Source of the DNA: Thermoanaerobaculales bacterium
Lineage (GTDB): Bacteria; Acidobacteriota; Thermoanaerobaculia; Thermoanaerobaculales; Sulfomarinibacteraceae
DNA length: 51,817 nt
Direction of reading: 5' to 3'
NCBI GenBank assembly: GCA_024763555.1
Contig: JANTFG010000002.1
Span: forward strand, 1 to 51,817
Part shown: positions 820 to 49,341 of the stretch, in pieces
How positions within the stretch are numbered: the first letter of the stretch is position 1
Layout of the letters: every line of letters begins with the position of its first letter
The notes under the pieces: model-generated
Database searches by the model: none
What the model saw: only the letters and a program-made list of their open reading frames with translations
Told to the model about the DNA's origin: nothing
Made by a program: the position numbers and the translations under genes

Positions 820-1169
820 GCGGCCGGAGCCGGACTGAGAAAGAAGGCAGTTTGTTTCGAAGTGAAAAACAGGGGATGACAGAAGGCATTCTTTGTCGCA
901 AGGTCCCCTGAGTTACGCGTTGGGGTGAAATCCCCGTCAGGAATTCGAAGGCCTGGAGAATATTCTCTATCAAGAGTCAAGCACTCTCTTGGGAAATTTC
1001 CTTGGTGTCCTCGTTGTAAGAGGGGCTGTGGGAAACCTGGCGGGAGGAGCGAGGCGATCTCCCAGAAGGTTTCTGATAGGCGTCCATAGCCCCCGGAGGA
1101 CCCGGCAATTCCACAGCTCCCTCGCTTTGCGGCTTTCTCAGTCCCATACCGGGGTCCAAAGGCAGAGGG

Positions 1170-1351
1170 CCGGAGCGGGAGCGGAAGCAGGAACCGAAAC
1201 CGGAACCGGAGCAGGGAGCCGAAACCGGGGCCGGAGCCGCACATCCGGAGCCGATGCCGGAGCCGGTGCGGGCGTGGTTCTCTGAGCGGAACGAGGGTGG
1301 GATGATGGCTGTCTAATTTCCTGAACCGCAGCAGGGATCCGAGACCGGAGC
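1170..1351 (-). repeat. composite intergenic element, degenerate copy (R1): hexamer array plus conserved boxes
   Basis: The CCGGAG-type degenerate hexamer array spans 1170..1271. CCGGAGCCGCACATCCGGAGCC (1231..1252) is the reverse complement of the GCTCCGGATGTGCGG box seen at 23253..23273 and 37155..37175. CGTGGTTCTCTGAGCGGAA (1273..1291) is the reverse complement of TTCCGCTCAGAGANCCACG at 7199..7218. Confidence 0.55.
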
Positions 1352-6855: not shown

Positions 6856-6894
6856 CGGGCGAAGTCACGAAGGGTATGAGCTGAGATATCCCAA

Positions 6895-7296
6895 CCGGGC
6901 CCGGAGCAGGAGCAGGAGCAGGAGCAGGAACCGATTCCGGAGCCGGACCCCTCAGCCGAGAGACAAAACTGAGACGGCAAAGTCGTACTCGAACTCGTCG
7001 AAACATCCCACGAAGCCACCTGCCTTCCACCGGAGCCGGGACCGGAGCCGATTCCGCGGCCGGATGCCACGACCGAGAGGCGATACCGGGCCTGCGGATT
7101 CGTACTCGCAGTGGTCGGAACAGCCCACGATCACACCGGGCTCGGCCACCGCCTCCCTGCTCCGGTTCGGGATACCAGGGCGGCCCCCGGCCCACGTATT
7201 CCGCTCAGAGATCCACGGCCGGCCCTGCTCCGGTTTGCCGCTCCGGCTCCGGCATCGGTTTTCCGCTCCTGCTCCGGATTGCCGCTCCGGATCCAG
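6895..7296 (+). repeat. composite intergenic element, most complete copy (R2): inverted hexamer arms, tandem core
   Basis: (GGAGCA)x4 lies at 6903..6926. The left arm 6915..6946 is a near-perfect reverse complement of 7243..7275. Core copies lie at 6955..7020 and 7071..7165. The TTCCGCTCAGAGATCCACGG box is at 7199..7218. The 7030..7167 stretch is about 85% identical to 23080..23217 by hand alignment. Confidence 0.85.
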
Positions 7297-7304
7297 GGAC
7301 AGAC

Positions 7305-8057: not shown

Positions 8058-9418
8058 CGCATCCGGGAGTGGAAGTGCCGCATCACGGCCCCCAGGCAGG
8101 CGCCCCCGATGTTCCGCCCCTTCTCGGAGATCCGGCTGCAGAACTCCACCCGACCCCTGGGATCGACGTCGCCGATCTTCTGGCCCTTCCTCACCACGTA
8201 GCCCGGGTGAATCAGACCCCGGATGACCCCGGAAATCAATGTCCTGACGGGAAGTTCTCCCACCCGGCCCAGCTCCTGACCCGCCTCAACCAGATCACCG
8301 ATCCCGGAGGCGGCATCGAAGATTCCGTCTCCGGGAGACCTGAGTACCCGATCGGCCGTATGCCCGGCAATGGTGCCCGGCGTGTGGGTATTGGGCTGCG
8401 CCGGACCCTGCTCGATCAGACGGGCGAGATCGTGGCCGCGATTGGTTTCGATCACGAGATCGACGTCCTCAGCGGCTATAAAACCCGGGCCCAGTGCGAT
8501 CACCAGCTCGGCCTCATCGAAGAAGGACCCCTCGTTCCGTTTGAGCAGGCGGGCGTCGATGATGACCTCCGGGCGCAGACGACGCGCAGTCTCGCACTCG
8601 GGGTCGATCAGGACCGGAATGAATCTTCCCCGGAAATCCCGAAGCTCACCCGATTCTTCAAGGCTGAAGGCCCGGGCGGGCACTCCCTCGACCTCCACCT
8701 CGCCCTCCTGGATCGCCGTGGCGAAGGCGACGAGGCGCCGGATGGTCGTCGGTCTTTCAACATCGGTCATCATGACTTCGAAACCACTGGTGAAAAAACG
8801 ATGCGCCACGGCCGAGGCGATCTCCCCCGCCCCCTTGATCAGGATTCTCGGAAAACCGCCGAAATCTCCCGGATGGTCGAGATCCTCGACGACTCCCGGC
8901 TCATCAACCGGGATATCCAGGACATCCTCCGAATGAGCCCTGAGGATCTCCCGGGCGCCCACATCGCCCCGCTGACTGAGCAGCTCCTCCCTGAAGCTTC
9001 GGGCCATCAGCACCGGGTGTCCCGCCTTTCCCCGGAAGGAGGGGCGGGCGATTCCCCTGTCACTCCGAGAGAACTCATCGATCAGCCGATGCAGGGTGGA
9101 AACGCTGAGATTCGGCATGTCGGCCAGGGCGATGAGGTAGGCGTCCACATCCTCCGGAGCGGCCAGAATACCCGCCCGCATCGAGGAGGCCATGCCCTCT
9201 TCAAAGTCCGGATTGACGACGAGATCACATGCGACCGGGCCGTCGGGCCAGCTGAATCCCGGCTGCACGACCAGACTGAGGCCGTTAATCCGCGCCGAGG
9301 AGATCAGCGGAAGGAGGGCACGGTAGAGCACCCGCTCACCCCGGATTTTTATCAGGAGCTTATCCCGGCCCATGCGCTCAGAAGTCCCGGCGGCAAGCAG
9401 AATGGCGTGGATCTTCAA
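8054..9418 (-). CDS. fusion protein: MobA/MocA-like molybdenum cofactor nucleotidyltransferase plus YqeB-family selenium-dependent Mo hydroxylase maturation domain
   Basis: The N-terminus IHAILLAAGTSERMGRDKLL is a MobA-like NTP transferase. The C-terminal half (ILIKGAGEIASAVAHRFFTSGFEV ... KGQKIGDVDPRG) resembles the YqeB family. It overlaps yqeC by 4 nt. Confidence 0.75.
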   Translation of the reverse strand: MKIHAILLAAGTSERMGRDKLLIKIRGERVLYRALLPLISSARINGLSLVVQPGFSWPDGPVACDLVVNPDFEEGMASSMRAGILAAPEDVDAYLIALADMPNLSVSTLHRLIDEFSRSDRGIARPSFRGKAGHPVLMARSFREELLSQRGDVGAREILRAHSEDVLDIPVDEPGVVEDLDHPGDFGGFPRILIKGAGEIASAVAHRFFTSGFEVMMTDVERPTTIRRLVAFATAIQEGEVEVEGVPARAFSLEESGELRDFRGRFIPVLIDPECETARRLRPEVIIDARLLKRNEGSFFDEAELVIALGPGFIAAEDVDLVIETNRGHDLARLIEQGPAQPNTHTPGTIAGHTADRVLRSPGDGIFDAASGIGDLVEAGQELGRVGELPVRTLISGVIRGLIHPGYVVRKGQKIGDVDPRGRVEFCSRISEKGRNIGGACLGAVMRHFHSRMR

Positions 9419-9430
9419 GATCAGAGCCTC

Positions 9431-10915
9431 CTAGCGGTGTGCACCCGTCCCGCTCAGCTCCTCGCTCGTCCGGATGTGCGCAATGAATCGCTCCGAAAGA
9501 CGCTGAACGTCCCGCATCACCTCATCGGGCCTGGTGCCGTCCGCAAAGGGAAGGATCTTCCCATTCTCCTTGAGGATTCGGCCTGAAGCCACGACGGTAC
9601 TGATCTCGGATCCATCGGCCGCCCAGATCAGGTTCTCCACGAGGTTGTCCACCCGGGTCGGGATGAGGTTGGGCCGGTTGAGATCCACCAACACCCAGTC
9701 CGCCTGCCGTCCGGGGGCCAATTCGCCCTGGTTCAGCCCGAGAATCGCGGAGGGGACGACGGTGATCATCTCCATCAGCTGCTGCGCCGGCATCAGGGTG
9801 GCGTCCTGGTGCAAGGCCTTCTGATACTCGGCCGCCAGGCGGGCGGCGTTGAGAATATTCTGATTATCCGCCGAGCCGGAACCGTCGGTGGAGATCGCCA
9901 CCGGGATACCGGCTGCCATCATCTCGATGACGGGGGGCATGCCCGAACCCAGGATGGTATTGGCCAGGGGGTTATGCACGACCCGGGTCCCGGTGCGGGC
10001 GAGAATCTCGAGATCGGCGGGTCCGCAGTTGACCTGGTGCGCCAGCACCGTCTTCTCATCGAGAATCCCGATGGCATCGGCGTACTCCACCGGAGTCATC
10101 CCGGGCTCGATCTCTTCGGAAAACCAGCGGGTGGTATTGGGCTCCTCCGCACTGTGGACGTGAAAGAGCGTGCCGTGCTCCCGGGCCCATCGCTTGAGGG
10201 GAATCAGCTGCTCGCGGCTGTTGGAAAAGAGCTGGTCCGGACCGGGACAGAAGCTGGTGCGTTTCAGGCCCTCGAGCTTCAGGGCCTCATCGAGACGTTC
10301 GACGGCCTCTCCCGGGCTGTCCAGGACCTCCTCGACGTAGAATCGATCCTGTCCGCCGACGGCCACGATCATCGTGGTGCCCGCCGCCTCGTTGGCCTGA
10401 GCGATCTCCTGAAGGTAGTACTTGTTGAAATTGCAGTGGTGCACCATCGAGGCGGTGATGCCGTAGTGAATGTCGACCAGGCGCGCCATGCGGTAGACCG
10501 CCAGCTGGGGCACACAACCCAGCTCTTCACTCAGTTCCTCCCTCCGGCTCCGCATGAAGCCGGTGAAGGGATTGACGGCGTGGTCCAGCCAGGCGGTCAG
10601 GGCCTGGTCCTTGGCGATCCCGATCAGGGGCTGTTCATGGTCGTGCCCGTGGGCCTTGACGAAGGCCGGCAGGAGTACGGCGTTGATCATCGGAATCTCG
10701 TCGGCCAGGGGATCGCCCATCACCTCCAGCGCGGATCCGTAGTTTTCCTCAAGCCTCCGGCCGATCTCTTCGGTGAAATGACCGACTTCGAGGATCTCCT
10801 CGCCCTCGGCCAGCACATAGCCGTCCTCGATCCGCTCGGAGCGATCGGGCTCAGCAAAGGGCAGAAGGTAGCGGGCCCTGCAGAGGAGAAAAGGGCCTTT
10901 CTTCGGCGCCGGCAT
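9431..10915 (-). CDS. metal-dependent amidohydrolase (SsnA / guanine-deaminase-like)
   Basis: The layout is amidohydrolase-like, with an HxH motif (KAHGHDH), HVHSAE, and ISTDGSGS with an Asp near the C-terminus. The exact subfamily cannot be decided without a search. Confidence 0.75.
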   Translation of the reverse strand: MPAPKKGPFLLCRARYLLPFAEPDRSERIEDGYVLAEGEEILEVGHFTEEIGRRLEENYGSALEVMGDPLADEIPMINAVLLPAFVKAHGHDHEQPLIGIAKDQALTAWLDHAVNPFTGFMRSRREELSEELGCVPQLAVYRMARLVDIHYGITASMVHHCNFNKYYLQEIAQANEAAGTTMIVAVGGQDRFYVEEVLDSPGEAVERLDEALKLEGLKRTSFCPGPDQLFSNSREQLIPLKRWAREHGTLFHVHSAEEPNTTRWFSEEIEPGMTPVEYADAIGILDEKTVLAHQVNCGPADLEILARTGTRVVHNPLANTILGSGMPPVIEMMAAGIPVAISTDGSGSADNQNILNAARLAAEYQKALHQDATLMPAQQLMEMITVVPSAILGLNQGELAPGRQADWVLVDLNRPNLIPTRVDNLVENLIWAADGSEISTVVASGRILKENGKILPFADGTRPDEVMRDVQRLSERFIAHIRTSEELSGTGAHR

Positions 10916-10917
10916 CT

Positions 10918-13782
10918 TCAGAGCCTCCCCAGGGCACGGAGGATTTTTTCCGCGCTGAAGGGCCAGCTCCGGATCCAGACGCCGGTCGCATCATGAATGG
11001 CCGAGGCCAGGGCCGGGGCGGCGCCGTTACAGGCCACCTCAGAGATCGACTTGACCCCGTAGGGACCGAAGGGATCGTCGGTCTCGATCAGTTCCGCCGT
11101 GAATTCCCCGGGGACATCCCCGATCATCGGCACCTTGTAGGAATGCAGGCTCGGATTCGTACAGCACCCACTCTCATCCAGGACCATCTCCTCAAAAAGC
11201 GCATGACCGATGGTCTTCATTACGCCGCCGTAAACCTGGCCCAGGGCGAGCTTGGGATTGATCGGCGTCCCGCAGTCATGGAGCGCCACGTATTTCTGAA
11301 CCTCCACCTCTCCCGTCCGGGTGTTGACTCCCACCTGGGCAAGATGCACGGCATAGGGAAAGGAGCTGTTCTCACCCGTGAAGACCCCGCTGGCCACCAG
11401 CTGGCCGCAGCCGTCGCCGCCCTGGGTGTAGCGGGCGATCTCATCAAATCCCACCGATCCCGACTTGCCCTGCACCCGGCTGGGATAGACGAGTTCCAGG
11501 TTTTCCCGGGGTTCCGCCATCATCTCCTGCGCGACGTCGAGAATCATCTCCTTCATCCGCTTGGCCGCGTTGAGCGCGGCGCCACCGGAGAAATAAGTCC
11601 CGCTGGACGCATAGGCACCGACATCAAAGGGCGTCACATCGGTGTCCGCGGCGATGATCGAGATATTCTCCATGGGCGTGCAGAGGTACTCCGCCGCCAT
11701 CTTCGTACTGACCGTGTCCAGACCGGTGCCCAGATCGGTTCCGCCGCTTAAGAGAATGAAGGTTCCGTCCCCGAACATCGAGATGACGGCATTGGCCGCA
11801 TCGAGGTGGGGCAGACCCGAACCCTGCTGGATGATCGCGAATCCCTTGCCGATCTTCACATCGGGATCATCGCTCTCCTCCTTCCGGCCCCAGCCGATCA
11901 GCTCGGAACCGCGCTCAAGGGCCGGTCCCAGCGCACAGGTATAGACCTTCTCGGGCGAGCCTTCCCGACCCTCTCCGAGACAGCGGAGAATCTCTAAAAC
12001 GACACCTTCGCGGACCCTGTTCTTCTCGATGAAATCCATCTGGTCCATGCCCAATTCATCGGCAAGTTCCGCTGCCGCCAGCTGCATGGCGAAGGAACCC
12101 TGGGGCGCGCCGTAACCCTGATAGGCCCCCGTCGGCGGGATATTGGAATACCAGGAATGCACATCGAAGTGGACGTTGTCGCAGAGCAAAAGCGGCAGGG
12201 CCTTGGAGCAGCCGTTCATCGGCACCGTCAGGCAGTGGTCGCCGAAGGGTCCGGTGTTGCAGTCCACATCCATCTGCATGGCCGTCAGTTTTCCATCTTT
12301 CTTTGCGCCGAGTTTGATCCGGATCTTCATAGGATGACGGGTTCTCGAGGCAATGAACTCCTCTTTGCGGCTCATCCGGTAATAGACTGATCGACCCGTA
12401 CTCCAGGTCGCCCAGGCGGCGATGTCCTCCACCACCATGTCCTGCTTCGCCCCGAAGGCGCCGCCGGTCTTCTCCTTGATCACCCGGATCTGATTCTCAC
12501 GGATATTGAGGATCCGGGCGAGGATGCGGCGGATATGCCAGGGCACCTGCGTCGAGGCGTGAACCACCAGCCGGCCCGCAACCATTTTGGTATACACGAC
12601 ATGGGGTTCCAAGGGCGTACACTGGACCTGCGCCGTCTCATACTCCCGCTCGACGATGACATCGGCCTCGGCGAAACCTTCTTCGATATCACCGATGCCG
12701 CCGCTGACGGATGCCGCGAGATTGCGGCTCGGGTCGCCGTGAATCGGGAACTGGTAGATGATCGTCCCGTCACGGGAATCCGCCTTCGAGTTATCGAGAT
12801 CCGGTGGAGCCCCGACAACGTATTCCACGGGTCCGCTGTGAACCAGGGGCGCACCGGGCGCACAGGCCTCTTCGATGCTGAATACGGGTTTGAGAACATC
12901 GTAGTCGACCTCGATGGACTCGAGGGCCAGAGCCGCGATCTCCTCGGTCTCCGCAAGCACGGCCGCCACCCTGTCGCCGATGTGGCGCATCTTCCGGCTG
13001 AAGAGATAGTGGTCATAGGGCGAGGGCTCCGGGAAGCCCTGGCCGGCGCAGCCGTAGGGAATATCCGGGCAGTTCTCATAGCTGAAAACCGCAACGACGC
13101 CGTCCATGGCCTCGGCCTTCGAAGTATCGATGCTCCTGATCCAGGCCGAAGCGTGCGGGCTCCCGAGAACCTTGAGGTAACAGGCATCCGCCTCGACCCG
13201 GTCTTCGACAAAGGCCTTCTCGCCACGCACCAGCTGGGGCGCATCCACCTTCGGGCGCACCTTGCCGATCACCCGAAGCTCTCCGCCGAACTCAGGGGCC
13301 GGCGGCGCCTTGAAATCGGGATCCGAGAGCCTTTCCTTTGCCAGGCTAACGGCATCGAAGAACTGCTGGTAGCCCGTACACCGGCAAAAGGTGCCGGAGA
13401 GGGCGTCACGGATCTCGGCCCTGTCCGGGTCGGGATTCCGTTCAAGCAGCTCATGCACGGCCAGCTGCATGGAGGGCGTACAGTAACCGCACTGAACCAC
13501 CCCGGCATCGACGAAGGCTGACTGGACGATGGAGAGGGAGCGGTGGCGATTGAGAAACTCGATCGTCCTGATGTCTTTTCCATCGACCTGGGCCGCACGA
13601 AGGAGACAGGAATTCATCTGGCGTCCGTCGATAAGCACTGCGCAGGCCCCGCAGGAGCCCTCTCCGTCACAACCCTTCCGGACCCCGAGGACCCCGTCAG
13701 CCTGGAGGACTTCCAGCAGCTTGGCGCCCGGGTCGACATCGAATTCACGCAGGCGGCCGTTGAGAGTGAAGTGAATCTTCAT
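10918..13782 (-). CDS. xdhD: xanthine dehydrogenase family molybdopterin hydroxylase, fused [2Fe-2S] and Moco-binding subunit (XdhD-like)
   Basis: The N-terminal 2Fe-2S motifs are GCDGEGSCGACAV, CGYCTP and FCRCTGY, followed by aldehyde oxidase/xanthine dehydrogenase large-subunit domains. At 954 aa it has the E. coli XdhD-like fused architecture. Confidence 0.88.
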   Translation of the reverse strand: MKIHFTLNGRLREFDVDPGAKLLEVLQADGVLGVRKGCDGEGSCGACAVLIDGRQMNSCLLRAAQVDGKDIRTIEFLNRHRSLSIVQSAFVDAGVVQCGYCTPSMQLAVHELLERNPDPDRAEIRDALSGTFCRCTGYQQFFDAVSLAKERLSDPDFKAPPAPEFGGELRVIGKVRPKVDAPQLVRGEKAFVEDRVEADACYLKVLGSPHASAWIRSIDTSKAEAMDGVVAVFSYENCPDIPYGCAGQGFPEPSPYDHYLFSRKMRHIGDRVAAVLAETEEIAALALESIEVDYDVLKPVFSIEEACAPGAPLVHSGPVEYVVGAPPDLDNSKADSRDGTIIYQFPIHGDPSRNLAASVSGGIGDIEEGFAEADVIVEREYETAQVQCTPLEPHVVYTKMVAGRLVVHASTQVPWHIRRILARILNIRENQIRVIKEKTGGAFGAKQDMVVEDIAAWATWSTGRSVYYRMSRKEEFIASRTRHPMKIRIKLGAKKDGKLTAMQMDVDCNTGPFGDHCLTVPMNGCSKALPLLLCDNVHFDVHSWYSNIPPTGAYQGYGAPQGSFAMQLAAAELADELGMDQMDFIEKNRVREGVVLEILRCLGEGREGSPEKVYTCALGPALERGSELIGWGRKEESDDPDVKIGKGFAIIQQGSGLPHLDAANAVISMFGDGTFILLSGGTDLGTGLDTVSTKMAAEYLCTPMENISIIAADTDVTPFDVGAYASSGTYFSGGAALNAAKRMKEMILDVAQEMMAEPRENLELVYPSRVQGKSGSVGFDEIARYTQGGDGCGQLVASGVFTGENSSFPYAVHLAQVGVNTRTGEVEVQKYVALHDCGTPINPKLALGQVYGGVMKTIGHALFEEMVLDESGCCTNPSLHSYKVPMIGDVPGEFTAELIETDDPFGPYGVKSISEVACNGAAPALASAIHDATGVWIRSWPFSAEKILRALGRL

Positions 13783-14588
13783 GAGGCCACCTCCGTCAGG
13801 GCCTTCGCCACGAGGACCCCGGCCATATGTTTCCTGAATTCGGCGGTCGCACGGGAATCCGTTTCGGCCCGCACCTGCTCCCGCACCATGCTCTCAATCT
13901 GCTCACGCGGCGGAAGGGTTGAGCCCTCCAGGCTCTCCTCGACCCTGATCAGCCGCTGCGGCAGGGGGCCCGGGCCGCCAATGACGATTCTCGACCTTGA
14001 GACCGCAGCATCCTTTTTCGCCACAAAAACCGCGACCGACAGTAGTGCCAGGTCAATTGTCGAGCGTCGATACTGGGCGACGGCAGCCCCTCCATCGGCG
14101 GGGAAGCTCGGAATCCGAACGGCCGTAATCAGGCCCTCCCGGGCGCCGTCCAGATACTCCGGGATCCCGAGCGAGATCGGAGCCAGATCGGCATCGAGAA
14201 GATCGAGTTTCGCGTCGAGGGCGATCAGGAGGGGCAGCACCGAGGCATAGGGGTGAGCGGCCGCCACATGACCTCCGATCGTGGCCTGGTTTCGGATCGA
14301 ACGATTCTCGACCTGAAGACAGGCCCGATGGAGCACCTCTGGAAGCTCTTCAGCTTCAAGAATCTCCTGGATCGTGGCGGCCGCACCGATGATGATCTCC
14401 TCGCCGCGAAACTCGATCGACTTCGAATTGACCCGAGCCAGAGAGATGAGATCTTCGATCCCCTCCTCCTGCGAGGTCTGTGAATTCAGCTCGCTTCCTC
14501 CCCCGAGGAAACGTGCCCCCTCCCCCAGAGAGGCCTTCAGCTCGAGGGCCTCCCGAGCGCTTTCCGGAATATGAAATCCTGAAACCAT
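13779..14588 (-). CDS. FAD-binding (medium) subunit of xanthine dehydrogenase family enzyme
   Basis: The motifs FLGGGSEL and ATIGGHVA are typical of the CO dehydrogenase flavoprotein / FAD_binding_5 family. The start is set at the internal ATG 14588 (MVSGFHIP), preceded by GGAAGG. It overlaps the xdhD-like start by 4 nt. Confidence 0.8.
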   Translation of the reverse strand: MVSGFHIPESAREALELKASLGEGARFLGGGSELNSQTSQEEGIEDLISLARVNSKSIEFRGEEIIIGAAATIQEILEAEELPEVLHRACLQVENRSIRNQATIGGHVAAAHPYASVLPLLIALDAKLDLLDADLAPISLGIPEYLDGAREGLITAVRIPSFPADGGAAVAQYRRSTIDLALLSVAVFVAKKDAAVSRSRIVIGGPGPLPQRLIRVEESLEGSTLPPREQIESMVREQVRAETDSRATAEFRKHMAGVLVAKALTEVAS

Positions 14589-14628
14589 AGAACCTTCCCA
14601 TCCACGCCGGACCGATCGACGTCGAGAT

Positions 14629-16689
14629 CTACTCGTCACCTCTCATTATCTCACTATTTGACGGCAGGAACCATGGGGCCTTTCCGAGGGCTTGAGCTGT
14701 GGGCTGATTCGAGGCGAAGCAGCTCTTCTTGTCCTGCCGCTCCGAGACCCCTCCGATACGGAACCATCTGATCCCCAGAGCCAGCTTTCTCGAGTCGCGG
14801 CTTGCCGAAAGCTCACTGGGCGCCACCGCATCGGGGAGGAGGAAAATCAGCGAATTCTCCTTCTCAAAACGACCTTCCGGCACCTTCGTCTCGTGGAGAT
14901 GAGGGCGTCTCTGATCACAGACGAAGGAATCGATACTCTTCCCGTTCAGCACAAGGCTGATTCTCTGTCGATGAAAACAGAAGATCTCCATCGAGATCCG
15001 CGAAAAGCGCCGGGCATCTCTGAGCGAGAATGACAACTCAGCACGATTCCCGCGGCTCCAGCGGTGGTTCTTCTCCGCTCGGAACCAGCCGGCGCCGAGG
15101 AAGTTCTCGGCCTCCGCAGAGCCGAAGTCGATCTGCTGTCCGCCACGAAACAGAGCAGGCGGTCTCCTCCTGAGACTCACTTCCCGGATCTCGATCCCGT
15201 CGAATTTCCCGAGTACGGTCTGAGACCCGGAGCCAAGCACCCACTTCGCGAGTTCCTCATCCTGCAGGCCGGAGACATTACCCGGCGTCGTACACACCCA
15301 GACCCTTGCCGAATCCGCACTTCTCATCATCCGTTGAAGCGAGTCTCGAGTCTGTTGTGGAATCTCCTCGTGCGTATAGTATGAGGCCATCATTCGATAA
15401 AAATTCGGCGAGAAAACCGCCGCATCGGGAGGGCCTGCCTGCTGCCAGAAAGCCGCAAACTCCGTCAATCCTCTCTTCGTGATGGCCTCCTCCTGACACC
15501 ATGAACCGAAGGCCATCAGGAGGAACAACGGACCGAAGACCAGGAAGCGCAGGACCCATGACCGCATCGCGGCACACTCCCCGGCAGCAAGAACCAGGAA
15601 AGGCGCAAGCACGAGCAGGCAGAAGCGGGGTGGATAATAAATGGGCTCAAAGAAGAGACTCATCAGCAGCACGAGAACAACCGGTCCAAAGATCAGCCAG
15701 AGGAGCAGGCCCCGGTCCGCCCCCCGGTCGGCGGGCTGATTCTCCACTCCGGATTTTCCCGCAAGACCCCGGGCGCGACTCAGTGCCGATCCCAGGACAA
15801 AGAGAACCAGGATCCAGGCCGGCCATGTAAGTCGGTGTCGAAGCACCCGAGCAACTCCTCCGCAGAAGGGAAAGAAGAAGAGATCCACAAGAAAGCGATA
15901 GACCGTGCTCGGTGTGGCCTGGGGAATCCAGCCGAGAATCGCCCTGCTGAAGAACACTCCCCGAACCCCAATGACAAAGCTCGCCCAGGCGCCAACAACC
16001 GCGAGGCACACAAGACCGATCACAACAAAAACAGTCGCCTGACGGAAACGCCGCTTCCACAGGAAAAACCCGAGAGCATAGAGGCCCTGAGCCAGGAGAA
16101 TCATGGAGCCGACGAGGTGCGTCAAACAGAGAAGCACGGCCGACAATGCGTAGAGGCCGGCCCACGGCGCCCAGGGCAAAGAGCGATTCTGTTCCCCGAC
16201 CCGGGCATGGAACCATCGCCGGAGAAAATAGGAGGAGGCAAGAGCTAGAGTCGCCGCCTGGCTGTACATGCGTGCTTCCTGGGCGTAATAGAGATCCAGT
16301 GGATTCACCGCCGCGAGGAGCCCGGCCATGATGGAGATCCTCGGCCCCCCAATATCCCGGGCAAAGAGCATCAGGAATACGATACCGAGGAGACTCCACG
16401 CCGTACTCAATCCTCTGATCGCGGATTCGGAATCTCCAAACACCCTCCTGATGAGAGAAACCTCCAGAAAATACAGCGGCGGATGCGTATCCCGGGCATT
16501 CGCCTTCAGAATGTGCTGGAAGCTCCCCTCACTCAGATGAGACGTACAGACCTCGTCCAGCCAGAAGGGCTCCTTTGAGATTCCTGCCAGTCGCAGACCG
16601 GCTGCCAGGATCAGGATGAGTATCATGAAGAGGAGAAATCGACGCCCGGAATCCCGAAAACTCATGGACAGGAGTGTACTCCAGCCCAC
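14629..16689 (-). CDS. membrane glycosyltransferase family 39 (ArnT/PMT-like) protein
   Basis: It has many TM segments and an N-terminal EPFWLDEV ... HPPLYF motif typical of GT39/ArnT-like enzymes, plus a C-terminal soluble extension. The start codon is uncertain (GTG at 16689 or ATG at 16665). Confidence 0.7.
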   Translation of the reverse strand: MGWSTLLSMSFRDSGRRFLLFMILILILAAGLRLAGISKEPFWLDEVCTSHLSEGSFQHILKANARDTHPPLYFLEVSLIRRVFGDSESAIRGLSTAWSLLGIVFLMLFARDIGGPRISIMAGLLAAVNPLDLYYAQEARMYSQAATLALASSYFLRRWFHARVGEQNRSLPWAPWAGLYALSAVLLCLTHLVGSMILLAQGLYALGFFLWKRRFRQATVFVVIGLVCLAVVGAWASFVIGVRGVFFSRAILGWIPQATPSTVYRFLVDLFFFPFCGGVARVLRHRLTWPAWILVLFVLGSALSRARGLAGKSGVENQPADRGADRGLLLWLIFGPVVLVLLMSLFFEPIYYPPRFCLLVLAPFLVLAAGECAAMRSWVLRFLVFGPLFLLMAFGSWCQEEAITKRGLTEFAAFWQQAGPPDAAVFSPNFYRMMASYYTHEEIPQQTRDSLQRMMRSADSARVWVCTTPGNVSGLQDEELAKWVLGSGSQTVLGKFDGIEIREVSLRRRPPALFRGGQQIDFGSAEAENFLGAGWFRAEKNHRWSRGNRAELSFSLRDARRFSRISMEIFCFHRQRISLVLNGKSIDSFVCDQRRPHLHETKVPEGRFEKENSLIFLLPDAVAPSELSASRDSRKLALGIRWFRIGGVSERQDKKSCFASNQPTAQALGKAPWFLPSNSEIMRGDE

Positions 16690-17325: not shown

Positions 17326-18097
17326 CACAGCACCCGGCCCGGTACTCCTGGTGTTCCTGGTCCTGATTCTCGGATGCGGCGCTTCCCCGCACGACGCCCA
17401 ATCCCCTCAAGGCCCGGGAGCACAAGATGGGCAACAGCTCGCAGCCGTTGAATCCTCCAGTCCGGAAGCAGAGCAGAGCCTCAGCCCACCCGCTTCTCCC
17501 GCTTCTCCCGCTTCTCCCGCAAAGGCCTTGATCAACTGGGAGGATCCCGAGCCGCCGGAAGCTCAGGCCCTGGCCGAATCCCTCGTCGCCGAGCCCTTCA
17601 ACGAGGACAAGACGAGCCGCCTCGTCATGCACATCACCACGCTGCTCAATCAGACATCAGGAATCGAGGGCTTTGCCACGAGCCTGAGCCCGAAGGCAGC
17701 CACGCTTGCGGATCGTCTCGACGCCCTTCAAGCCGAGGAAAGCGAAACCGAGATCAGGATCCGACTCTCAGGCGCCATCCTTTTTGACTTTGACTCCTCA
17801 GCAGTTCGCCCCGATGCCGAAAGAACCCTGGGCGAACTTCTTGAGATATTCAAGAGCTTCCATGATCGTCCCATCCGAGTCGAAGGGCACACGGATTCCA
17901 TCGCCTCGGAAAACTACAACCAGAAACTCTCCGAAGAAAGGGCACAATCCGTGGCCCGATGGTTGATCGCTCATGGAGTTCGTCAGGGAAGAATCAAAAC
18001 CCTCGGTTACGGCGAAAGCCGTCCCCTTGCCGATAACACAACTGCCGAGGGCCGCCAGAAAAATCGCAGGGTGGAAATCATCATCGAGAAGAAATGA
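17303..18097 (+). CDS. OmpA-family lipoprotein (peptidoglycan-associated)
   Basis: The C-terminal OmpA-like domain reads RVEGHTDSIASENYNQKLSEERAQSVARWL ... NRRVEIII. A lipobox LILGC lies in the N-terminal signal. The start is set at ATG 17303, which overlaps the upstream gene. Confidence 0.8.
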   Translation: MCRSRTSNTAPGPVLLVFLVLILGCGASPHDAQSPQGPGAQDGQQLAAVESSSPEAEQSLSPPASPASPASPAKALINWEDPEPPEAQALAESLVAEPFNEDKTSRLVMHITTLLNQTSGIEGFATSLSPKAATLADRLDALQAEESETEIRIRLSGAILFDFDSSAVRPDAERTLGELLEIFKSFHDRPIRVEGHTDSIASENYNQKLSEERAQSVARWLIAHGVRQGRIKTLGYGESRPLADNTTAEGRQKNRRVEIIIEKK

Positions 18098-18155: not shown

Positions 18156-18495
18156 ATGTCCTTCCTTGCTCCCCTGTGGGATGGACGGAAAGATGAATAT
18201 CACGCTCTGGATTTTCAGTCCCGGCGAAGGACCCCGGTCATCGAAAACCGTCTCTGAGTCGAATCGAAATCTCCTTTCCCGACCCCGGTTTCGGCATCGG
18301 TTCCGGCACCGGAGATGCGGCTCCTGCTCCGGTATGGGTTTCCGTGTAGCGCTTGGCTCCGCCCGCGAAGTCGACGTCCACCTCAGGCTTTTGCAATCCA
18401 TCGGGACGGTTGATCGTCAAAAAGCCACCAAGGCCGTTGAGCTTTTCGACCGCGTTCGGGCGATGACCTGGAGGTTGTTGCATCCACGGCGGTGA
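18156..18495 (+). pseudogene. decayed four-helix-bundle protein gene (23S rRNA intervening-sequence protein family) interrupted by a repeat array
   Basis: The C-terminal fragment FRVALGSAREVDVHLRLLQSIGTVD...VELFDRVRAMTWRLL (18343..18495) matches the family consensus around IA.GS..E...HL.LA..LG. An N-terminal fragment GRKDEYHALDFQSRRRTPVIEN (about 18186..18251, different frame, ending at a TGA stop at 18258..18260) resembles FPKEERYGLTSQLRRAAVSIPSN. About 50 nt of array sequence lies between the two fragments. Confidence 0.45.
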
Positions 18496-18550
18496 GGGGC
18501 CGCAGCCGGAGCCGGATCCGGAGCAGCAACCGGCACCGGAGCCGGTGGGA
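18284..18550. repeat. paired repeat arrays (R3) flanking the four-helix-bundle gene fragment
   Basis: The left array 18284..18335 (..CCGGCACCGGAGATGCGGCTCCTGCTCCGG) is GCTCC-type. The right array 18497..18548 (CCGGAGCCGGATCCGGAGCAGCAACCGGCACCGGAGCCGG) is the GGAGC type of opposite polarity. Confidence 0.6.
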
Positions 18551-18551
18551 T

Positions 18552-18750
18552 CGTGGTTCTTTTAGCGGATTGCGGGAGCGATGATCGCGGTTTCTGTTGC
18601 TGAAACCCGAACAGGGAGGCCGTTGCCGGAAGCTAAGCGGTCGTGGGAATTCCGACCACTGCGAGTGTGATTCTGTCGCCTCAGCCTCGCCTCCCGGGCG
18701 TCAGACCGGGCTCCGGAATCGGTTACGGTTGGCGGCTCCCGATCCGACTC
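18552..18750 (-). repeat. composite intergenic element, inverted copy of the core (R4)
   Basis: The reverse complement aligns with 7050..7218. Shared blocks are CCGATTCCG..GCC, GGAGGCGA, ACTCGCAGTGGTCGGAA, CCCACGA, CCTCCCTG.TC.GG.TT and TCCGCT.A.AGA.CCACG (18552..18570). Confidence 0.7.
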
Positions 18751-18764
18751 CTCGATTCGCTGCT

Positions 18765-21045: not shown

Positions 21046-21149
21046 ACCGACCTCCGTGTTTTTCCCAGTCTAACAGGAAAGACCGGGACGGGAAAAGCTC
21101 AGGTACTGAAGAAGTCATTGCGCCGTGGGTCGGTTTGAGGCGGCTTCTC

Positions 21150-22792: not shown

Positions 22793-23035
22793 GCACTTCC
22801 CCACCCGAACTCTCAACAAAATTGAGAGCTGGAAAAATGACGCCGGAAACAGCGCTCACACACTGCCGTTGGGATGACCGGAAGCGCCTTTGAGCAGTCG
22901 ACTCCGGACTCACCTGCTCCAAGCCGGCCGGAATTCTCTTTCTCTGCATCTCCCTGGGGACAAACAGATCAGACGGAGCCGGAAAGCGGAAGGAAAGTTC
23001 CAGCCACTTCGGGAGCCGCAAATCGCCAAACGGAA

Positions 23036-23330
23036 CCGGGGCCGGATCCGGAGCAGGAGCCGCCAGCTGAATCCGCTTCCGGAGCCGGGGACCGGAGCCG
23101 CTTCAGCGGCCGGGTGCTGCGCCCGAAAGGCGAAACTGAGCCTGCAGAGTCGTACTCGTCGTGGTCGAAACAGCCCGCGATCACACCGGGATCCGCCACC
23201 TCATCCCTGCTCCGGTTTCAGACATCAATGCGCCGCCCGGCCCACGGATTCCGCTCCGGATGTGCGGCTCCGGGATCCGATTCTTGCTCCGGATTACCGC
23301 TCCGGTATCGGATTACTTCTCCGGCCCCGG
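23036..23330 (+). repeat. composite intergenic element, full copy (R5)
   Basis: It has a perfect 11-nt terminal inverted repeat: CCGGGGCCGGA at 23036..23046 and TCCGGCCCCGG at 23320..23330. The core 23080..23217 is about 85% identical to 7030..7167. The GCTCCGGATGTGCGGCTCCGG box is at 23253..23273. Confidence 0.85.
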
Positions 23331-23355
23331 ATCGTCGCCCCGAAATCGCTGCCTC

Positions 23356-25062
23356 TCACTCAGACTCCGACCCGACCACTCCCGCCTCTCCACTTCCCCT
23401 GGGGTCTGTTGCCGCCTCCATTGAACCGTCGGCTTCCCTCCGGACGGCCTGGACCAGCCCGACCGCCCTGGTCGAGGAAGTCTCCAGACCGCGGGAGCGG
23501 ATCACGGCTATCGTTTCCGGAGACAACGCACCCTCCTCGGCAAAGAGCCGATCGGGCAGCCACTGGTGGTGAATCCGGGGCGCATCGACAGCCGCCTGCA
23601 GATCTTCACCGTCAACAATGAGATGAAGCAGCACCTGCAGGGTGCCTGTTGGAATCCTGGAACCTCCCGGAGCACCAAGCACGATGAGATCCCCCTCATC
23701 ATTCCAGGCAATCGTCGGCGACATCGAGGAGAGCATTCTTCTTCCCGGAGCGACCGCGTTGGCCTCGCCCTGGATGAGTCCAAACTGATTCGCTTGCCCT
23801 GGGGCCGTGGCAAAATCATCCATCTCGTTGTTCAGCAGAAAACCCGCCTCCGGCACCAGGAGGCCACAGCCGAAGTTCCCGTTGAGCGTCGTCGTCAGGC
23901 TGATGGCGCCGCCTTCGCCATCAATGATTGAGAGATGGGTCGTCTCGGACGACTCCCTCCCCGGTGGAAGCTCGATGCTTCGGACGACGGCGGAGGGTGT
24001 CGACTTCGCGAGCGAGATTTCTCCTGCCAGGCGCTCCATCCTCTGTGGCAGGAGCAAGGTGGAGACATCAGCCCGGGTCGAGGCAGGATCACCCAGCAGG
24101 TAGCGATCGGCGAAGGCCCGTTTCCAGGCCTCGGCAAGCAGCATCATCCGGTCGGCGCCCCCTTTCGGAAGACCTGCATAGTTCTTGCCTTCCAGCAGTG
24201 CCGAGCTTTCGGCCAGGATGAGTCCCCCGGAAGACGGAAGCCCCATCGACGCCACATGCCAGCCGAAGGCGTCGAAACCCAGGCTCTTCCTCCAGACCGG
24301 CCGGTAGGTTTCGAGATCTTGAAGGCTCAGGATCCCTCCATGGCGAGTTGATACTCTCACCATGGCCCGCGCGACTTCCCCGCTCATGATGGCATCGGGG
24401 CCCCGATCGGCATAGGCCTGGAGGGTGCGGGCCAGGGCAGGCAAGCGGATCATCCGGCCGGCTTCCGGCGCCCTCCCCTCAGGTAGCCAGACCCGCCGAC
24501 TTTCCTCGAAGGCCCTCAAGAACACGGCATCTTCACTCCCGAGCAGCCGGGCAAGGTGGGCCGACACCGGAAAGCCATCGCGGGCGAGGCGGATCGCCGG
24601 GGCCACGACCCGGGCCCATCCCAGGCGTCCGAAGCGACGGTGCAGCTCAAAGTAGCCGCGCGGCGAGCCCGGAATTCCTGCGGCCAGTGGACCCAGGAGA
24701 GAGGCCAGCGGTTTGGGCGAGCCCTCAGGACCGAGGTACATGCCGGCCGAAGCCTCCGACGGCGCCGTTTCCCTGAAATCCAGGCTGGTGGTCCGGCCTC
24801 TCATTCGGATCACCGCAAAACCTCCCCCACCGAGGTTTCCCGCGTTGGGGTAGACGACAGCTAGCACGAGGGCCGCCGCCACCGCTGCATCAGCAGCGTT
24901 GCCTCCCGCCTTCAGGATGGAAATCGCAGCATCCGTGGCTTCCCTCGCCTGGGTTGCCACGGCCCCTCCATGACCCCGCCGGGCCGGGGGATCGGCCGCA
25001 GGAACAGGTCGGCACAGGGATAGAAGCAGGATGAGAGGCAGCAGGCTCCGAAGAATCTTCAT
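23356..25062 (-). CDS. ggt: gamma-glutamyltranspeptidase
   Basis: GNLGGGGFAVIR, LDFRETAP and the catalytic-Thr region SETTHLSIIDGEGGAISLTTTLN are present. The start is set at ATG 25062 (MKILRSLLPLILLLSL signal peptide). Confidence 0.9.
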   Translation of the reverse strand: MKILRSLLPLILLLSLCRPVPAADPPARRGHGGAVATQAREATDAAISILKAGGNAADAAVAAALVLAVVYPNAGNLGGGGFAVIRMRGRTTSLDFRETAPSEASAGMYLGPEGSPKPLASLLGPLAAGIPGSPRGYFELHRRFGRLGWARVVAPAIRLARDGFPVSAHLARLLGSEDAVFLRAFEESRRVWLPEGRAPEAGRMIRLPALARTLQAYADRGPDAIMSGEVARAMVRVSTRHGGILSLQDLETYRPVWRKSLGFDAFGWHVASMGLPSSGGLILAESSALLEGKNYAGLPKGGADRMMLLAEAWKRAFADRYLLGDPASTRADVSTLLLPQRMERLAGEISLAKSTPSAVVRSIELPPGRESSETTHLSIIDGEGGAISLTTTLNGNFGCGLLVPEAGFLLNNEMDDFATAPGQANQFGLIQGEANAVAPGRRMLSSMSPTIAWNDEGDLIVLGAPGGSRIPTGTLQVLLHLIVDGEDLQAAVDAPRIHHQWLPDRLFAEEGALSPETIAVIRSRGLETSSTRAVGLVQAVRREADGSMEAATDPRGSGEAGVVGSESE

Positions 25063-25187
25063 GTCGCGATTGTAGCCCCTCCCGGAAAACTCAGCATTCG
25101 ATTCCCTGAGTCCTGTGGCAGCTCCCAATACGCCCTCACGGAAGCAGCTGCCCGAATTCGGTGGTTGGCGGATCGCGTCCTCCGGCC

Positions 25188-36955: not shown

Positions 36956-37224
36956 TCGGGGCCGGAGTCCGGATCCCGTTGCTGCTCCCGCCCCTGCCGC
37001 TTCTCCGGCTCCGGCCTCGGTTTGCCGTTTCGGATCTCAAGACATGCTCAGCGACAGTGAAGGAAGCAGGATCAGAATCAGCGGCAGTCTCAGGCGCAAT
37101 GCGCGTTCAGCCTGTTCCATTCAGGAACCCACCAACGCGTCGGCCCCGGATTCGGCTCCGGATGTGCGACTTCGGCCCCGGCTCCCTGCTCCTGCTCCTG
37201 CTCCTGTTCCTGCTCCGGCCCCGG
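36956..37224 (+). repeat. composite intergenic element, copy with weak core (R6)
   Basis: The ends TCGGGGCCGGA (36956..36966) and TCCGGCCCCGG (37214..37224) form a 10/11 inverted repeat. The GCTCCGGATGTGCGACTTCGG box is at 37155..37175. (CTCCTG)x3 at 37189..37206 is the reverse-complement hexamer of (GGAGCA)n at 6903..6926. Confidence 0.6.
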
Positions 37225-37425
37225 CGCCAGACCTGACATGGTGTGAATCTCGCAGCGATTGGCATGACGAGTTCCGGAAACCCTTTGTTCACGGCAATGC
37301 TCCGGGGTAACATGCTGCTGATATCTTTCGCAACCAATTCATGCACCAGGGCTTGCGCAGAGCACAGTGTCCTCTCAGCATCATCCAGTTTCCGGCCGAA
37401 GGGAGGATGAGCTACACTGTTCGGC

Positions 37426-41720: not shown

Positions 41721-41739
41721 GCGGGAGAAAGGAACGTCA

Positions 41740-42867: not shown

Positions 42868-42868
42868 G

Positions 42869-49256: not shown

Positions 49257-49332
<76 letters not shown>

Positions 49333-49341
49333 AGAATTCAC

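What the first reader, a model, noticed from the sequence alone, without database searches (positions are those of the whole stretch)
23036..23330. Second full element copy with perfect 11-nt terminal inverted repeats and about 85% identity to the type copy
The element ends are CCGGGGCCGGA (23036..23046) and TCCGGCCCCGG (23320..23330), an exact inverted repeat. The interior 23080..23217 aligns with 7030..7167 with about 20 mismatches and one 1-nt indel over about 138 nt by my hand count. Similarity continues, more weakly, to GGCCCACGGATTCCGCTC.

Downstream, the GCTCCGGATGTGCGGCTCCGG box (23253..23273) recurs at 37155..37175 and, as a reverse complement, at 1231..1252. The element abuts the 3' end of ggt, whose stop codon is at 23356..23358.

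Defined termini together with internal conservation are what a MITE-like element would show. I could not see a target-site duplication in the flanks.
Basis: seen in the sequence. Interest (0 to 1): 0.7.

Follow-up and report, generated by a model that had tools for sequence, protein, structure and literature searches.

The report
GC-rich palindromic intergenic repeat family
The stretch after the ggt gene is one copy of a previously undescribed non-coding repeat that recurs between genes in this uncultured Acidobacteriota-like bacterium. It is a real, lineage-specific element of a familiar kind, but the "perfect terminal inverted repeats" are a side effect of its repetitive arms, not transposon ends.

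Summary
The 11-nt inverted repeat is exact. 23080-23217 matches 7030-7167 with 20 mismatches and one indel. The GCTCCGGATGTGCGGCTCCGG box recurs at 1231 (reverse complement) and 37155.

The element is one of five related intergenic loci in the window: three complete (about 6893-7300, 18496-18753, 23033-23333) and two partial (1167-1340, 36957-37228). All share one polarity: a 5' array of CCGGAGC heptamers, an X box, an S box, a roughly 100-nt core (duplicated at 7 kb), and a 3' array of GCTCCGG.

It does not code for protein. dN/dS is 0.7-1.4 in all six frames, and stops and frameshifts differ between copies. Thirteen small NCBI "proteins" are translations of further copies, also with shifting frames.

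The arms pair into a 250-400-nt hairpin (z -1.7 to -5.3). The 11-nt repeat is one of about 20 arm-to-arm matches, and arms of different copies give matches of 8-16 nt. The termini are not conserved, there is no target-site duplication, and the window holds no transposase.

Rfam and covariation tests give no support for a structured RNA.

Best reading: a new GC-rich, modular, palindromic interspersed repeat resembling BOX and ERIC elements, probably carried in 3' UTRs. It is of modest interest.

The parts
23033..23333 (-). Copy c23k, the finding: a complete element read 5'->3' on the minus strand. It begins 22 nt after the ggt stop codon.
   Evidence: (nhmmer E 8e-58)
23240..23333 (-). c23k 5' arm. 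GCTCCGG occurs on the plus strand at 23253, 23267, 23286 and 23299. The arm includes a 32-nt tandem unit x2.2 (23253-23324), the GCTCCGGATGTGCGGCTCCGG box, and the X-box-like CCGGAGCGGAATCCGTGGG.
23199..23222 (-). c23k S box, TCTGAAACCGGAGCAGGGATGAGG. It resembles a Shine-Dalgarno site and is followed by GTG.
23100..23198 (-). c23k core. It contains the family signature ACTCGNNNTSGTCGRAAN(2,3)CCCRCGA at 23154-23180 (plus strand).
23033..23100 (-). c23k 3' arm. CCGGAGC occurs on the plus strand at 23048, 23079 and 23092. It holds the left copy of the 11-nt inverted repeat (23036-23046).
6893..7300 (-). Copy c7k, the 'type copy': complete, with the core duplicated in tandem (units 7044-7137 and 6927-7020, period 117). 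It begins 4 nt after the stop of the YqeC-family gene and fills the gap between convergent genes.
   Evidence: (D4, D5)
18496..18753 (+). Copy c18k: complete and more diverged, with a 1-nt indel in the core. It starts directly after the stop of the upstream reading frame and ends 12 nt before the stop of the convergent PIN-domain gene.
   Evidence: (I2, I4)
18285..18340 (.). Solo GCTCCGG-type arm fragment. It abuts a 5'-truncated remnant of a four-helix-bundle (23S rRNA IVS) gene.
   Evidence: (D1)
1167..1340 (+). Partial copy c1k: 5' arm (CCGGAGC x5), X box (1274-1292) and S box (1320-1339), with no recognisable core. It lies upstream of a response-regulator gene.
   Evidence: D2, D8, I7; E 2e-14
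36957..37228 (-). Partial, rearranged copy c37k: 5' arm with (CCTGCT)5.3, the box at 37155-37175, an X-like box, an extra insert of roughly 80-100 nt, and no core.
   Evidence: (D11, I1, I6)
23356..25128 (-). ggt (gamma-glutamyltransferase), the co-directional gene whose 3' end the element follows. The database version of the protein, P0001, is 534 aa.

Best explanation
The region is one copy of a lineage-specific family of non-coding, GC-rich, modular palindromic interspersed repeats.

Each complete copy has a fixed polarity: a 5' array of CCGGAGC-type heptamers and hexamers, an X box (GTGGnTCTCTGAGCGGAAT), an S box (CTGAAACCGGAGCAGGGAGG), a roughly 100-nt core present once or twice, and a 3' array of the complementary GCTCCGG units. 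Because the arms are complementary arrays, either strand can fold as single-stranded DNA or RNA into a 250-400-nt imperfect hairpin.

**Inferred.** The family spread as a non-autonomous element, by an unidentified transposase or by recombination, long enough ago for copies to have diverged to 60-76% identity. Arm length and core number then changed by slippage and unequal exchange.

**Inferred.** All three complete copies start 0-22 nt after the stop codon of a co-directional reading frame; the frame upstream of c18k is only a truncated gene remnant. So they are probably transcribed as 3' UTRs. There the hairpin could block 3' exonucleases or read-through, as proposed for REP, ERIC and BOX elements.

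**Shown.** Multi-copy status, non-coding status, architecture, folding potential and position.

**Not shown.** Mobility, transcription and any effect on mRNA.
For: **Repetition**
- Five loci are found by the repeat finder, blastn and nhmmer.
- The core signature occurs 4 times, against 0 expected by chance.

**Shared polarity and modules**
- The five-copy alignment shows the same order of parts, as do the sequences themselves.
- CCGGAGC/GCTCCGG is the commonest 7-mer in the window, 53 occurrences against about 15 expected from composition. About 33 of them lie in the five loci, and their orientation switches across the core.

**Non-coding**
- Mismatches between c7k and c23k spread 9/12/9 over codon positions.
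- dN/dS is 0.72-1.38 in all six frames.
- c23k has an in-frame stop and c18k a 1-nt indel.
- There is no Pfam match and no similarity to real genes of the window.

**Copies outside the window**
- Profile searches found 13 small NCBI reading frames that align over the X box, S box and core. They carry PEPE/EQEQ (CCGGAGC) arms upstream and LLLL/RLR (GCTCC) arms downstream.
- Their starts and stops differ. P0132, P0133 and P0135 switch into the other frames.
- P0136 shares the c18k/c1k linker variant, which points to subfamilies.

**Hairpin**
- Minimum-free-energy folds of all three complete copies pair the arms (26-56 arm-to-arm pairs). Z-scores are -1.7 to -5.3 against dinucleotide shuffles, on both strands.

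**Position**
- The gaps from the upstream co-directional stop codon are 22, 4 and 0 nt. Two copies fill the whole space between convergent genes.
- No canonical terminators or sigma-70 promoters lie inside the elements.
Against: - No DNA of any copy outside the window could be retrieved. Copy number, the consensus ends and insertion polymorphism are therefore unknown.
- The core pattern found nothing real in 185,579 species-representative genomes or 241 M metagenome records. Mobility between genomes is undocumented, and the 13 external copies may come from the same assembly as the window.
- Thermodynamic support is moderate for c23k on the transcribed strand (z -1.0 to -1.7).
- The orientation and position rule rests on three copies. 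The two partial copies lie in promoter-side positions.
- A conserved core of about 200 nt is more than a simple hairpin needs, so another function is possible.
Confidence: 0.62

Rival explanations
1. It is a classical MITE: a deletion derivative of an insertion sequence. The 11-nt perfect terminal inverted repeats would be bound by a transposase acting in trans, and the element would move by cut-and-paste.
For: - It is small, non-coding, multi-copy and intergenic, with inverted ends.
- A gene remnant truncated exactly at a solo arm (18285-18343) hints at past insertion or rearrangement.
- Subfamilies exist, as they do in mobile families.
Against: - The 11-nt inverted repeat is one of about 20 arm-to-arm matches, and arms of different copies give matches of 8-16 nt.
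- The termini are not conserved between copies.
- There is no target-site duplication.
- Copies are 60-76% identical, so there was no recent burst.
- The elements are GC-rich, whereas MITEs are described as AT-rich (PMC3049150).
- The window encodes no transposase.
Confidence: 0.15
2. It is a host-selected structured RNA or cis-acting 3' UTR or leader element. Examples would be a small RNA gene, or a GGA/Shine-Dalgarno-like decoy array that titrates an RNA-binding protein or ribosomes. On this view the sequence is conserved because of function rather than common descent by transposition.
For: - The X box, S box and core are conserved across window copies and the 13 external copies.
- The S box GCAGGGAUG/AGGGAGG resembles a Shine-Dalgarno or GGA-type binding site, and the 5' arm repeats GGAG (read from the sequence).
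- Complete copies are co-oriented with the upstream genes.
- A central hairpin, CGAG..GCGA..CYG/CRG..TCGT..CTCG, is predicted on both strands with one compensatory U-A to C-G change.
Against: - No Rfam family matches, even at E up to 10.
- RNAalifold covariation terms are zero or unfavourable (+0.25, +0.25, +2.47 kcal/mol), with many broken pairs.
- No promoter or terminator lies in or beside the copies, apart from one terminator-like site about 180 nt downstream of c23k.
- The neighbouring genes are unrelated to each other.
- Partial and rearranged copies exist.
Confidence: 0.13
3. It encodes a small Cys-containing protein (MAEPGVIVGCSDHCEYESAG...) translated from the GTG that follows the S box. 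This would be a multi-copy small-protein gene family.
For: - Reading frames of 65 and 76 aa sit behind a strong Shine-Dalgarno-like S box in c7k and c23k.
- Gene callers annotated 13 similar frames elsewhere, three of which start at the same MAE.
Against: - dN/dS is 0.74, with 6 synonymous and 12 non-synonymous changes. That is no better than the other frames.
- c18k has a stop four codons in and a frameshift.
- P0132, P0133 and P0135 are frameshifted at different points, and P0134 is truncated.
- The C-termini are unrelated to one another.
- Nucleotide similarity continues through the stop codon of the second c7k unit.
- There is no Pfam hit.
- The copies recovered by protein search are biased towards intact frames.
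Confidence: 0.04
4. It is a DNA-level array of binding sites (CCGGAGC heptamers) for a nucleoid or partition-type protein or a recombinase, with no RNA role.
For: - The heptamers are strongly clustered, with orientation switching across the core.
- Folding potential is equal on both strands, as expected of a DNA palindrome.
Against: - Heptamer spacing is irregular, at 12-20 nt.
- No candidate binding protein is known.
- The heptamer is not enriched outside the five loci: about 20 occurrences against 15 expected.
Confidence: 0.06

Closest known systems
BOX elements of Streptococcus pneumoniae (boxA-boxB(n)-boxC composite repeats)
   Same: - Both are small, non-coding, interspersed composite repeats with fixed end modules that pair with each other.
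- Both have an internal module present in variable tandem number. Here the core occurs x1 at c23k and x2 at c7k, and versions lacking it exist (c1k, c37k).
- Both are predicted to form stem-loops when transcribed, and both often lie next to gene ends. PMC3049150 describes this architecture and the proposed 3' stabilising role.
   Different: - There is no sequence similarity.
- Here the arms are themselves microsatellite-like arrays of a 7-mer, and the element is GC-rich (66-68%).
- The host is an uncultured Acidobacteriota-like lineage.
- No similarity between the arm ends and any IS is known, and copies are much more diverged.
ERIC / IRU (enterobacterial repetitive intergenic consensus) and REP/BIME/REPIN elements
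   Same: - All are imperfect palindromes in transcribed intergenic regions, commonly just after stop codons or between convergent genes.
- Proposed effects are on mRNA stability and termination (my own knowledge, and the background sections of PMC3049150 and PMC3733652).
- REPINs are two inverted REPs that form a hairpin.
   Different: - ERIC is about 127 bp and REP is 20-40 bp with a GTAG or CGTC tag (PMC3733652). This element is 260-410 bp, has a conserved non-palindromic core of about 200 nt, carries no GTAG/CGTC tag, and its repeated unit is a 7-mer.
- No RAYT transposase is present in the window.
MITEs (for example Correia/NEMIS and Nezha)
   Same: It is non-autonomous in size, non-coding, multi-copy and intergenic, with inverted ends and a highly base-paired fold.
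   Different: The defining terminal inverted repeats and target-site duplications were not found. The element is GC-rich rather than AT-rich. No partner IS is known, and the copies are old.

Membership tests
MITE | Small (under about 500 bp) and non-coding | tested here: met
   Copies are 260-410 bp. dN/dS is about 1 in all frames, and stops and frameshifts differ between copies.
MITE | Multiple dispersed copies that are not part of a segmental duplication | tested here: met
   Five loci lie in 52 kb with unrelated flanks. Thirteen further copies are seen as miscalled reading frames.
MITE | Terminal inverted repeats that define the ends and are conserved between copies | tested here: not met
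   The 11-nt inverted repeat is one of about 20 arm-to-arm repeats in c23k. c7k's best is a different 13-mer or 19-mer elsewhere in its arms, and c18k has no exact match of 9 nt or more. Arms of different copies give matches of 8-16 nt.
MITE | Target-site duplication flanking each copy | tested here: not met
   The only candidate is a non-abutting 7-mer at c23k, of a kind seen at 5.7% of random site pairs. c7k and c18k have none. The fuzzy ends weaken this test.
MITE | An autonomous IS or transposase with matching ends in the same genome | not testable with these tools
   About 37 of the window's largest reading frames were scanned against Pfam and none hit a transposase or integrase domain. 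Several had no hit at all. The rest of the genome is not available.
MITE | Insertion polymorphism (empty sites in relatives) | not testable with these tools
   The closest ggt homologue is 65% identical. Its locus, L014, has different neighbours and no copy of the repeat.
REP / REPIN | A 20-40 nt palindromic unit with a GTAG or CGTC tag | tested here: not met
   The repeated unit is the 7-mer CCGGAGC. No conserved GTAG/CGTC-tagged palindrome is seen in the aligned copies. The definition is from PMC3733652.
REP / REPIN | Two inverted units forming one hairpin, with an associated RAYT | tested here: inconclusive
   The arms do pair, but they are separated by a conserved core of about 200 nt. No Y1 transposase is in the window, and the rest of the genome is unavailable.
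BOX/ERIC-type composite palindromic interspersed repeat (a kind, not a homology family) | Modular build with a variable internal module number, pairing end modules, and an intergenic location near gene ends | tested here: met
   The core is x2 at c7k, x1 at c23k and c18k, and absent at c1k and c37k. Arm pairing is shown. Gaps of 0-22 nt separate the elements from upstream stop codons.
BOX/ERIC-type composite palindromic interspersed repeat (a kind, not a homology family) | Transcribed with neighbouring genes | not testable with these tools
   No expression data are available. This is only inferred from position and from the lack of a terminator between the gene and the element.
Structured non-coding RNA family | Match to a curated family, or a fold supported by covariation | tested here: not met
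   Rfam gathering and E-value modes found nothing relevant. The RNAalifold covariation term is zero or unfavourable. Only 3-4 sequences were available, so the test has little power.
Small-protein gene family | Reading frame and ends conserved, with purifying selection | tested here: not met

The most novel reading that the evidence does not exclude
The element is not junk but a host-maintained system of a new type. It would be a roughly 200-nt conserved RNA (X box, S box and core) presented on a long stem made of GGAG/CUCC heptamer arrays. It would be placed at the ends of operons in an uncultured Acidobacteriota lineage, where it acts as a 3' UTR-borne regulator. Examples would be a decoy for ribosomes or a GGA-binding protein, or a terminator or stabiliser that needs no U-tract in a high-GC genome lacking canonical terminators at these sites.
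Probability: 0.1. Interest if true: 0.6.

Novelty: new member of a known kind. Interest (0 to 1): 0.3.

Why it matters
- **Repeat biology.** Small interspersed repeats are well studied in Proteobacteria and Firmicutes but barely described in Acidobacteriota. This family shows an unusual build: GC-rich, with heptamer-array arms around a long conserved core. It adds a data point on how such repeats arise and persist.
- **Annotation.** At least 13 database "hypothetical proteins" are almost certainly spurious translations of this repeat. Long open frames across the window copies (223 and 232 aa on the plus strand) could be miscalled in the same way.
- **Assembly.** With about one copy per 10 kb in this window, the family probably contributes to fragmentation of the metagenome-assembled genome.
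- **Possible function.** If the 3' UTR hairpin role were confirmed, it would bear on how high-GC bacteria end and stabilise transcripts where no U-tract terminator is evident.

Tried and rejected
1. **Protein-coding, any frame.** Rejected on the spread of mismatches over codon positions, dN/dS, stops and frameshifts. A profile of the long plus-strand frame found nothing among 5.8 billion proteins.
2. **Relic of a real gene.** A blastx of the elements against all window reading frames of 100 aa or more gave only self and element-to-element hits. Pfam gave nothing.
3. **Known RNA family.** Rfam gathering mode on the whole window found only tRNA-Sec and one tRNA. E-value mode on the 23-kb, 7-kb and 18-kb copies found only chance microRNA-type hits.
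4. **Conserved RNA fold.** RNAalifold on 4 core units (both strands) and on 3 full conserved parts gave no favourable covariation.
5. **Copies elsewhere by DNA.** The core pattern was scanned against genome contigs, metagenome contigs and viral contigs, and by blastn against plasmids. Only single chance matches appeared, with no extended similarity.
6. **DNA of the external copies.** The look-up of encoding contigs failed for P0122, P0124, P0128, P0129 and P0134, and for the window's own ggt. The cluster look-up gave no accessions or names.
7. **Empty site.** The nearest ggt locus (L014, 65% identical) has different neighbours and no copy of the repeat, so it is uninformative.
8. **DGR template/variable repeat pair.** Mismatches between copies are not adenine-specific (alignment).
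9. **Genome-wide uptake-signal or Chi-like heptamer.** CCGGAGC is not enriched outside the five loci.
10. **Sigma-70 promoters or intrinsic terminators inside the copies.** None were found.
11. **Further weak copies in the window.** nhmmer found none beyond the five loci.

Full report
**1. The observation**

- CCGGGGCCGGA (23036-23046) and TCCGGCCCCGG (23320-23330) are exact reverse complements.
- 23088-23256 aligns without gaps to 7038-7206 at 82% (30 of 169 mismatched).
- Inside 23080-23217 there are 20 mismatches and one extra G, which is about 85%.
- A blastn of the whole ggt-GGDEF intergenic region against the window gives 23079-23342 against 7030-7289, E 8e-49. Weaker hits fall at 6893-7013, 18650-18746 (reverse strand), 37141-37224 and 1231-1285 (reverse strand).
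- The GCTCCGGATGTGCGGCTCCGG box is exact, as a reverse complement, at 1231-1251 and matches 19 of 21 at 37155-37175.
- ggt ends at 23356-23358 on the minus strand.
- Similarity stops at the element and the neighbouring genes are unrelated. They are YqeC, a GGDEF protein, an OmpA-family protein, a PIN-domain protein, a response regulator and a PfkB kinase. This is not a segmental duplication.

**2. What is there**

Five intergenic loci share one architecture with one polarity (alignment; sequences; nhmmer). "Forward" is the minus strand for the 7-kb, 23-kb and 37-kb copies, and the plus strand for the 1-kb and 18-kb copies. Read forward, a copy has these parts:
- a 5' array of CCGGAGC-type units, with GGAGCA hexamers in places (TRF);
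- an X box, GTGGnTCTCTGAGCGGAAT;
- a linker of 25-35 nt, in two variants;
- an S box, CTGAAACCGGAGCAGGGAGG;
- a core of about 100 nt carrying the signature ACTCGNNNTSGTCGRAAN(2,3)CCCRCGA on the opposite strand (4 matches in the window, 0 expected);
- a 3' array of GCTCCGG/GCTCCTG units.

The copies differ as follows.
- c7k (6893-7300) has two tandem core units, with a period of 117 nt (D5).
- c23k (23033-23333) and c18k (18496-18753) have one core each.
- c1k (1167-1340) and c37k (36957-37228) have arms, an X box and an S-like box but no core.
- A solo arm lies at 18285-18340.

CCGGAGC/GCTCCGG is the commonest 7-mer in the window, with 53 occurrences against about 15 expected from composition. 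About 33 of them lie in these five loci, which total roughly 1.5 kb. Their orientation flips across the core. The elements are 66-68% G+C against 59.6% for the window. Their conserved parts are 60-76% identical to each other.

**3. It does not code for protein**

- Mismatches between c7k and c23k fall 9/12/9 on codon positions in every frame.
- Nei-Gojobori dN/dS is 0.72-1.38 in all six frames, and 0.74 for the best small reading frame.
- That frame (MAEPGVIVGCSDHCEYESAG...; 65 and 76 aa) is interrupted upstream by a stop in c23k. In c18k it is broken by a stop and a 1-nt indel.
- In the second c7k core unit, nucleotide similarity runs straight through the stop codon.

A profile of this frame, searched against 1.84 billion representative proteins, found eight small reading frames. 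A second search found 13 in all. All are NCBI singletons on contigs of 2.9-20 kb, with no name, accession or Pfam domain.

These 13 frames align over the X box (GRPWVSERNTW), the S box (GIPSRSREIVAE) and the core (AVVGCSDHFECDSAGSVSRLGRQTRLRNRLRLAAP). They carry PEPE/EQEQ stretches (CCGGAGC arms) upstream and RLRMRFLLLL stretches (GCTCC arms) downstream. Their starts and ends differ.
- P0132 and P0133 jump into the "RPGSGIGSGWRL" frame after SVSPFG.
- P0135 jumps into the "ISTTESVTLPAQPRVSG" frame after AVVG.
- P0134 stops early.
- P0136 carries the c18k/c1k linker variant.

These are the signatures of a conserved DNA element miscalled as genes, not of a protein family. They also show that the whole architecture recurs outside the window and that subfamilies exist. 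Their DNA could not be fetched. The window's own ggt is also absent from the contig index. The external copies may therefore come from other contigs of the same withheld assembly; this is an inference.

**4. The "terminal inverted repeats"**

The two arms are arrays of one heptamer in opposite orientation, so inverted matches are everywhere.
- c23k has about 20 overlapping arm-to-arm inverted repeats.
- c7k has a perfect 13-mer and a 19-mer at 95% at other positions.
- c18k has none of 9 nt or more that is exact, but has 21-33-nt matches at 73-77%.
- The left arm of one copy against the right arm of another gives exact matches of 10-16 nt.

The 11-mer is therefore a by-product of the arms, not a defined terminus, and the arm ends differ between copies.

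There is no target-site duplication. A 7-nt AAATCGC repeat lies 9 and 12 nt outside the c23k inverted repeat, but 5.7% of random site pairs show as much, and the other two copies have none.

About 37 of the window's largest reading frames were scanned against Pfam, and none is a transposase, integrase or RAYT.

**5. Structure**

All three complete copies fold, on either strand, into one long imperfect hairpin closed by arm-to-arm pairing. There are 26-56 such pairs, and z-scores are -1.7 to -5.3 against dinucleotide shuffles.

Alignment folding predicts a small central hairpin (CGAG..GCGA..CYG/CRG..TCGT..CTCG) with one compensatory change. The covariation terms are zero or unfavourable and many pairs break. 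Rfam has nothing, even at E up to 10. With 3-4 sequences these tests have little power. A specific RNA fold is unsupported rather than excluded.

**6. Position**

The three complete copies start 22, 4 and 0 nt after the stop codon of a co-directional reading frame: ggt, the YqeC-family gene, and a truncated four-helix-bundle remnant. Two of them fill the entire gap between convergent genes.

No sigma-70-like promoter or U-tract terminator lies inside them. The only terminator-like site is about 180 nt downstream of c23k.

This is the placement typical of REP, ERIC and BOX repeats. It suggests co-transcription as a 3' UTR. The two partial copies sit on promoter sides, so the rule rests on three cases.

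**7. Distribution**

The genome has no close relative in the databases. The best ggt homologue is 65% identical, and named hits are Acidobacteriota. Its locus, L014, has different neighbours and no copy of the repeat.

The core pattern gave only single chance hits in 185,579 species-representative genomes and 241 M metagenome records (13 and 8 loci, none with extended similarity). It gave nothing in viral contigs or plasmids. The family looks lineage-specific, with the caveat that an exact-pattern scan misses diverged copies.

**8. Interpretation**

The best-supported reading (confidence about 0.6) is a new family of non-coding, GC-rich, modular palindromic interspersed repeats. In kind it is closest to pneumococcal BOX elements, which have end modules that pair and an internal module in variable number (PMC3049150), and to ERIC and REPIN elements.

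Repetition, non-coding status, architecture, hairpin potential and position are shown. Spread by a factor acting in trans, remodelling by slippage, transcription as a 3' UTR, and a stabilising or terminating effect are inferred.

It fails two defining MITE tests (conserved terminal inverted repeats and target-site duplication) and the REP unit definition (PMC3733652). It should therefore not be filed as either, although it may well have spread like them.

The rivals are a true MITE (0.15), a host-selected structured RNA or decoy (0.13), a DNA binding-site array (0.06) and a small protein (0.04).

**9. Verdict**

This is a real feature that was correctly observed. Its interpretation is partly right, the kind of element is already known, and the family is new. 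Interest is modest (0.3). The main practical value is for annotation and assembly, and as a lead if transcript data for this lineage become available.

Noticed in passing
window 49092-49186 (-), 49257-49329 (+), 49365-49393: A selenocysteine tRNA gene lies next to an ordinary tRNA gene. The 3' end of the latter (49308-49336) has an inverted 29-nt copy, 83% complementary, just downstream (I22). This could be an attachment-site relic or simply a hairpin.
   Followed up: no
window 7305-14639 (-): The operon ending at copy c7k encodes YqeC, a MobA-like NTP transferase fusion, an amidohydrolase, and a xanthine-dehydrogenase-type molybdenum hydroxylase with its FAD subunit. From my own knowledge this gene set is associated with selenium-dependent molybdenum hydroxylases, which fits the tRNA-Sec in the window.
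   Followed up: partly
window 18343-18495 (+), with the arm at 18285-18340: This is a 5'-truncated remnant of a 23S-rRNA-IVS four-helix-bundle protein gene (PF05635 positions 63-104 of 106, E 0.005, below threshold). The truncation point abuts a solo GCTCCGG arm, and a complete repeat copy starts right after its stop. This hints at a repeat-associated insertion or deletion.
   Followed up: partly
window 21114-21139 (-): The motif CTCAAACCGACCCACGGCGCAATGAC, which reads as 'RLKPTHGAMTS', lies between the GGDEF gene's stop and the next gene. It occurs once in the window. The same peptide motif ends three external miscalled reading frames, P0128, P0130 and P0131. It may be a second interspersed repeat family of this lineage. 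Rfam found nothing.
   Followed up: partly
window 6903-6929, 37185-37216, 17489-17520: There is a perfect (GGAGCA)4.5 microsatellite, a near-perfect (92% matches) (CCTGCT)5.3 one, and a perfect (CCCGCTTCT)3.6 repeat. The last lies inside the OmpA-family gene, where it encodes PASPASPASPA. All three are candidates for slippage variation.
   Followed up: no
proteins P0122, P0124, P0125, P0127-P0136 (NCBI, contigs of 2.9-20 kb): Thirteen database 'proteins' of 66-195 aa are almost certainly spurious translations of copies of this repeat. Their frames shift, their ends are unrelated to one another, and they have no domains.
   Followed up: yes
window 22874-23572 (+) and 6767-7438 (+): Open frames of 232 and 223 aa run across the repeat copies in the same relative frame and overlap real genes. 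They are artefacts of GC-rich, stop-poor sequence. No homologue was found among 5.8 billion proteins.
   Followed up: yes
window 39951-47126 (+): A type IV pilus-type cluster: two T2SSE ATPases, a T2SSF platform protein, a PilS-like kinase and a sigma-54 activator. It is ordinary and unrelated to the finding.
   Followed up: no
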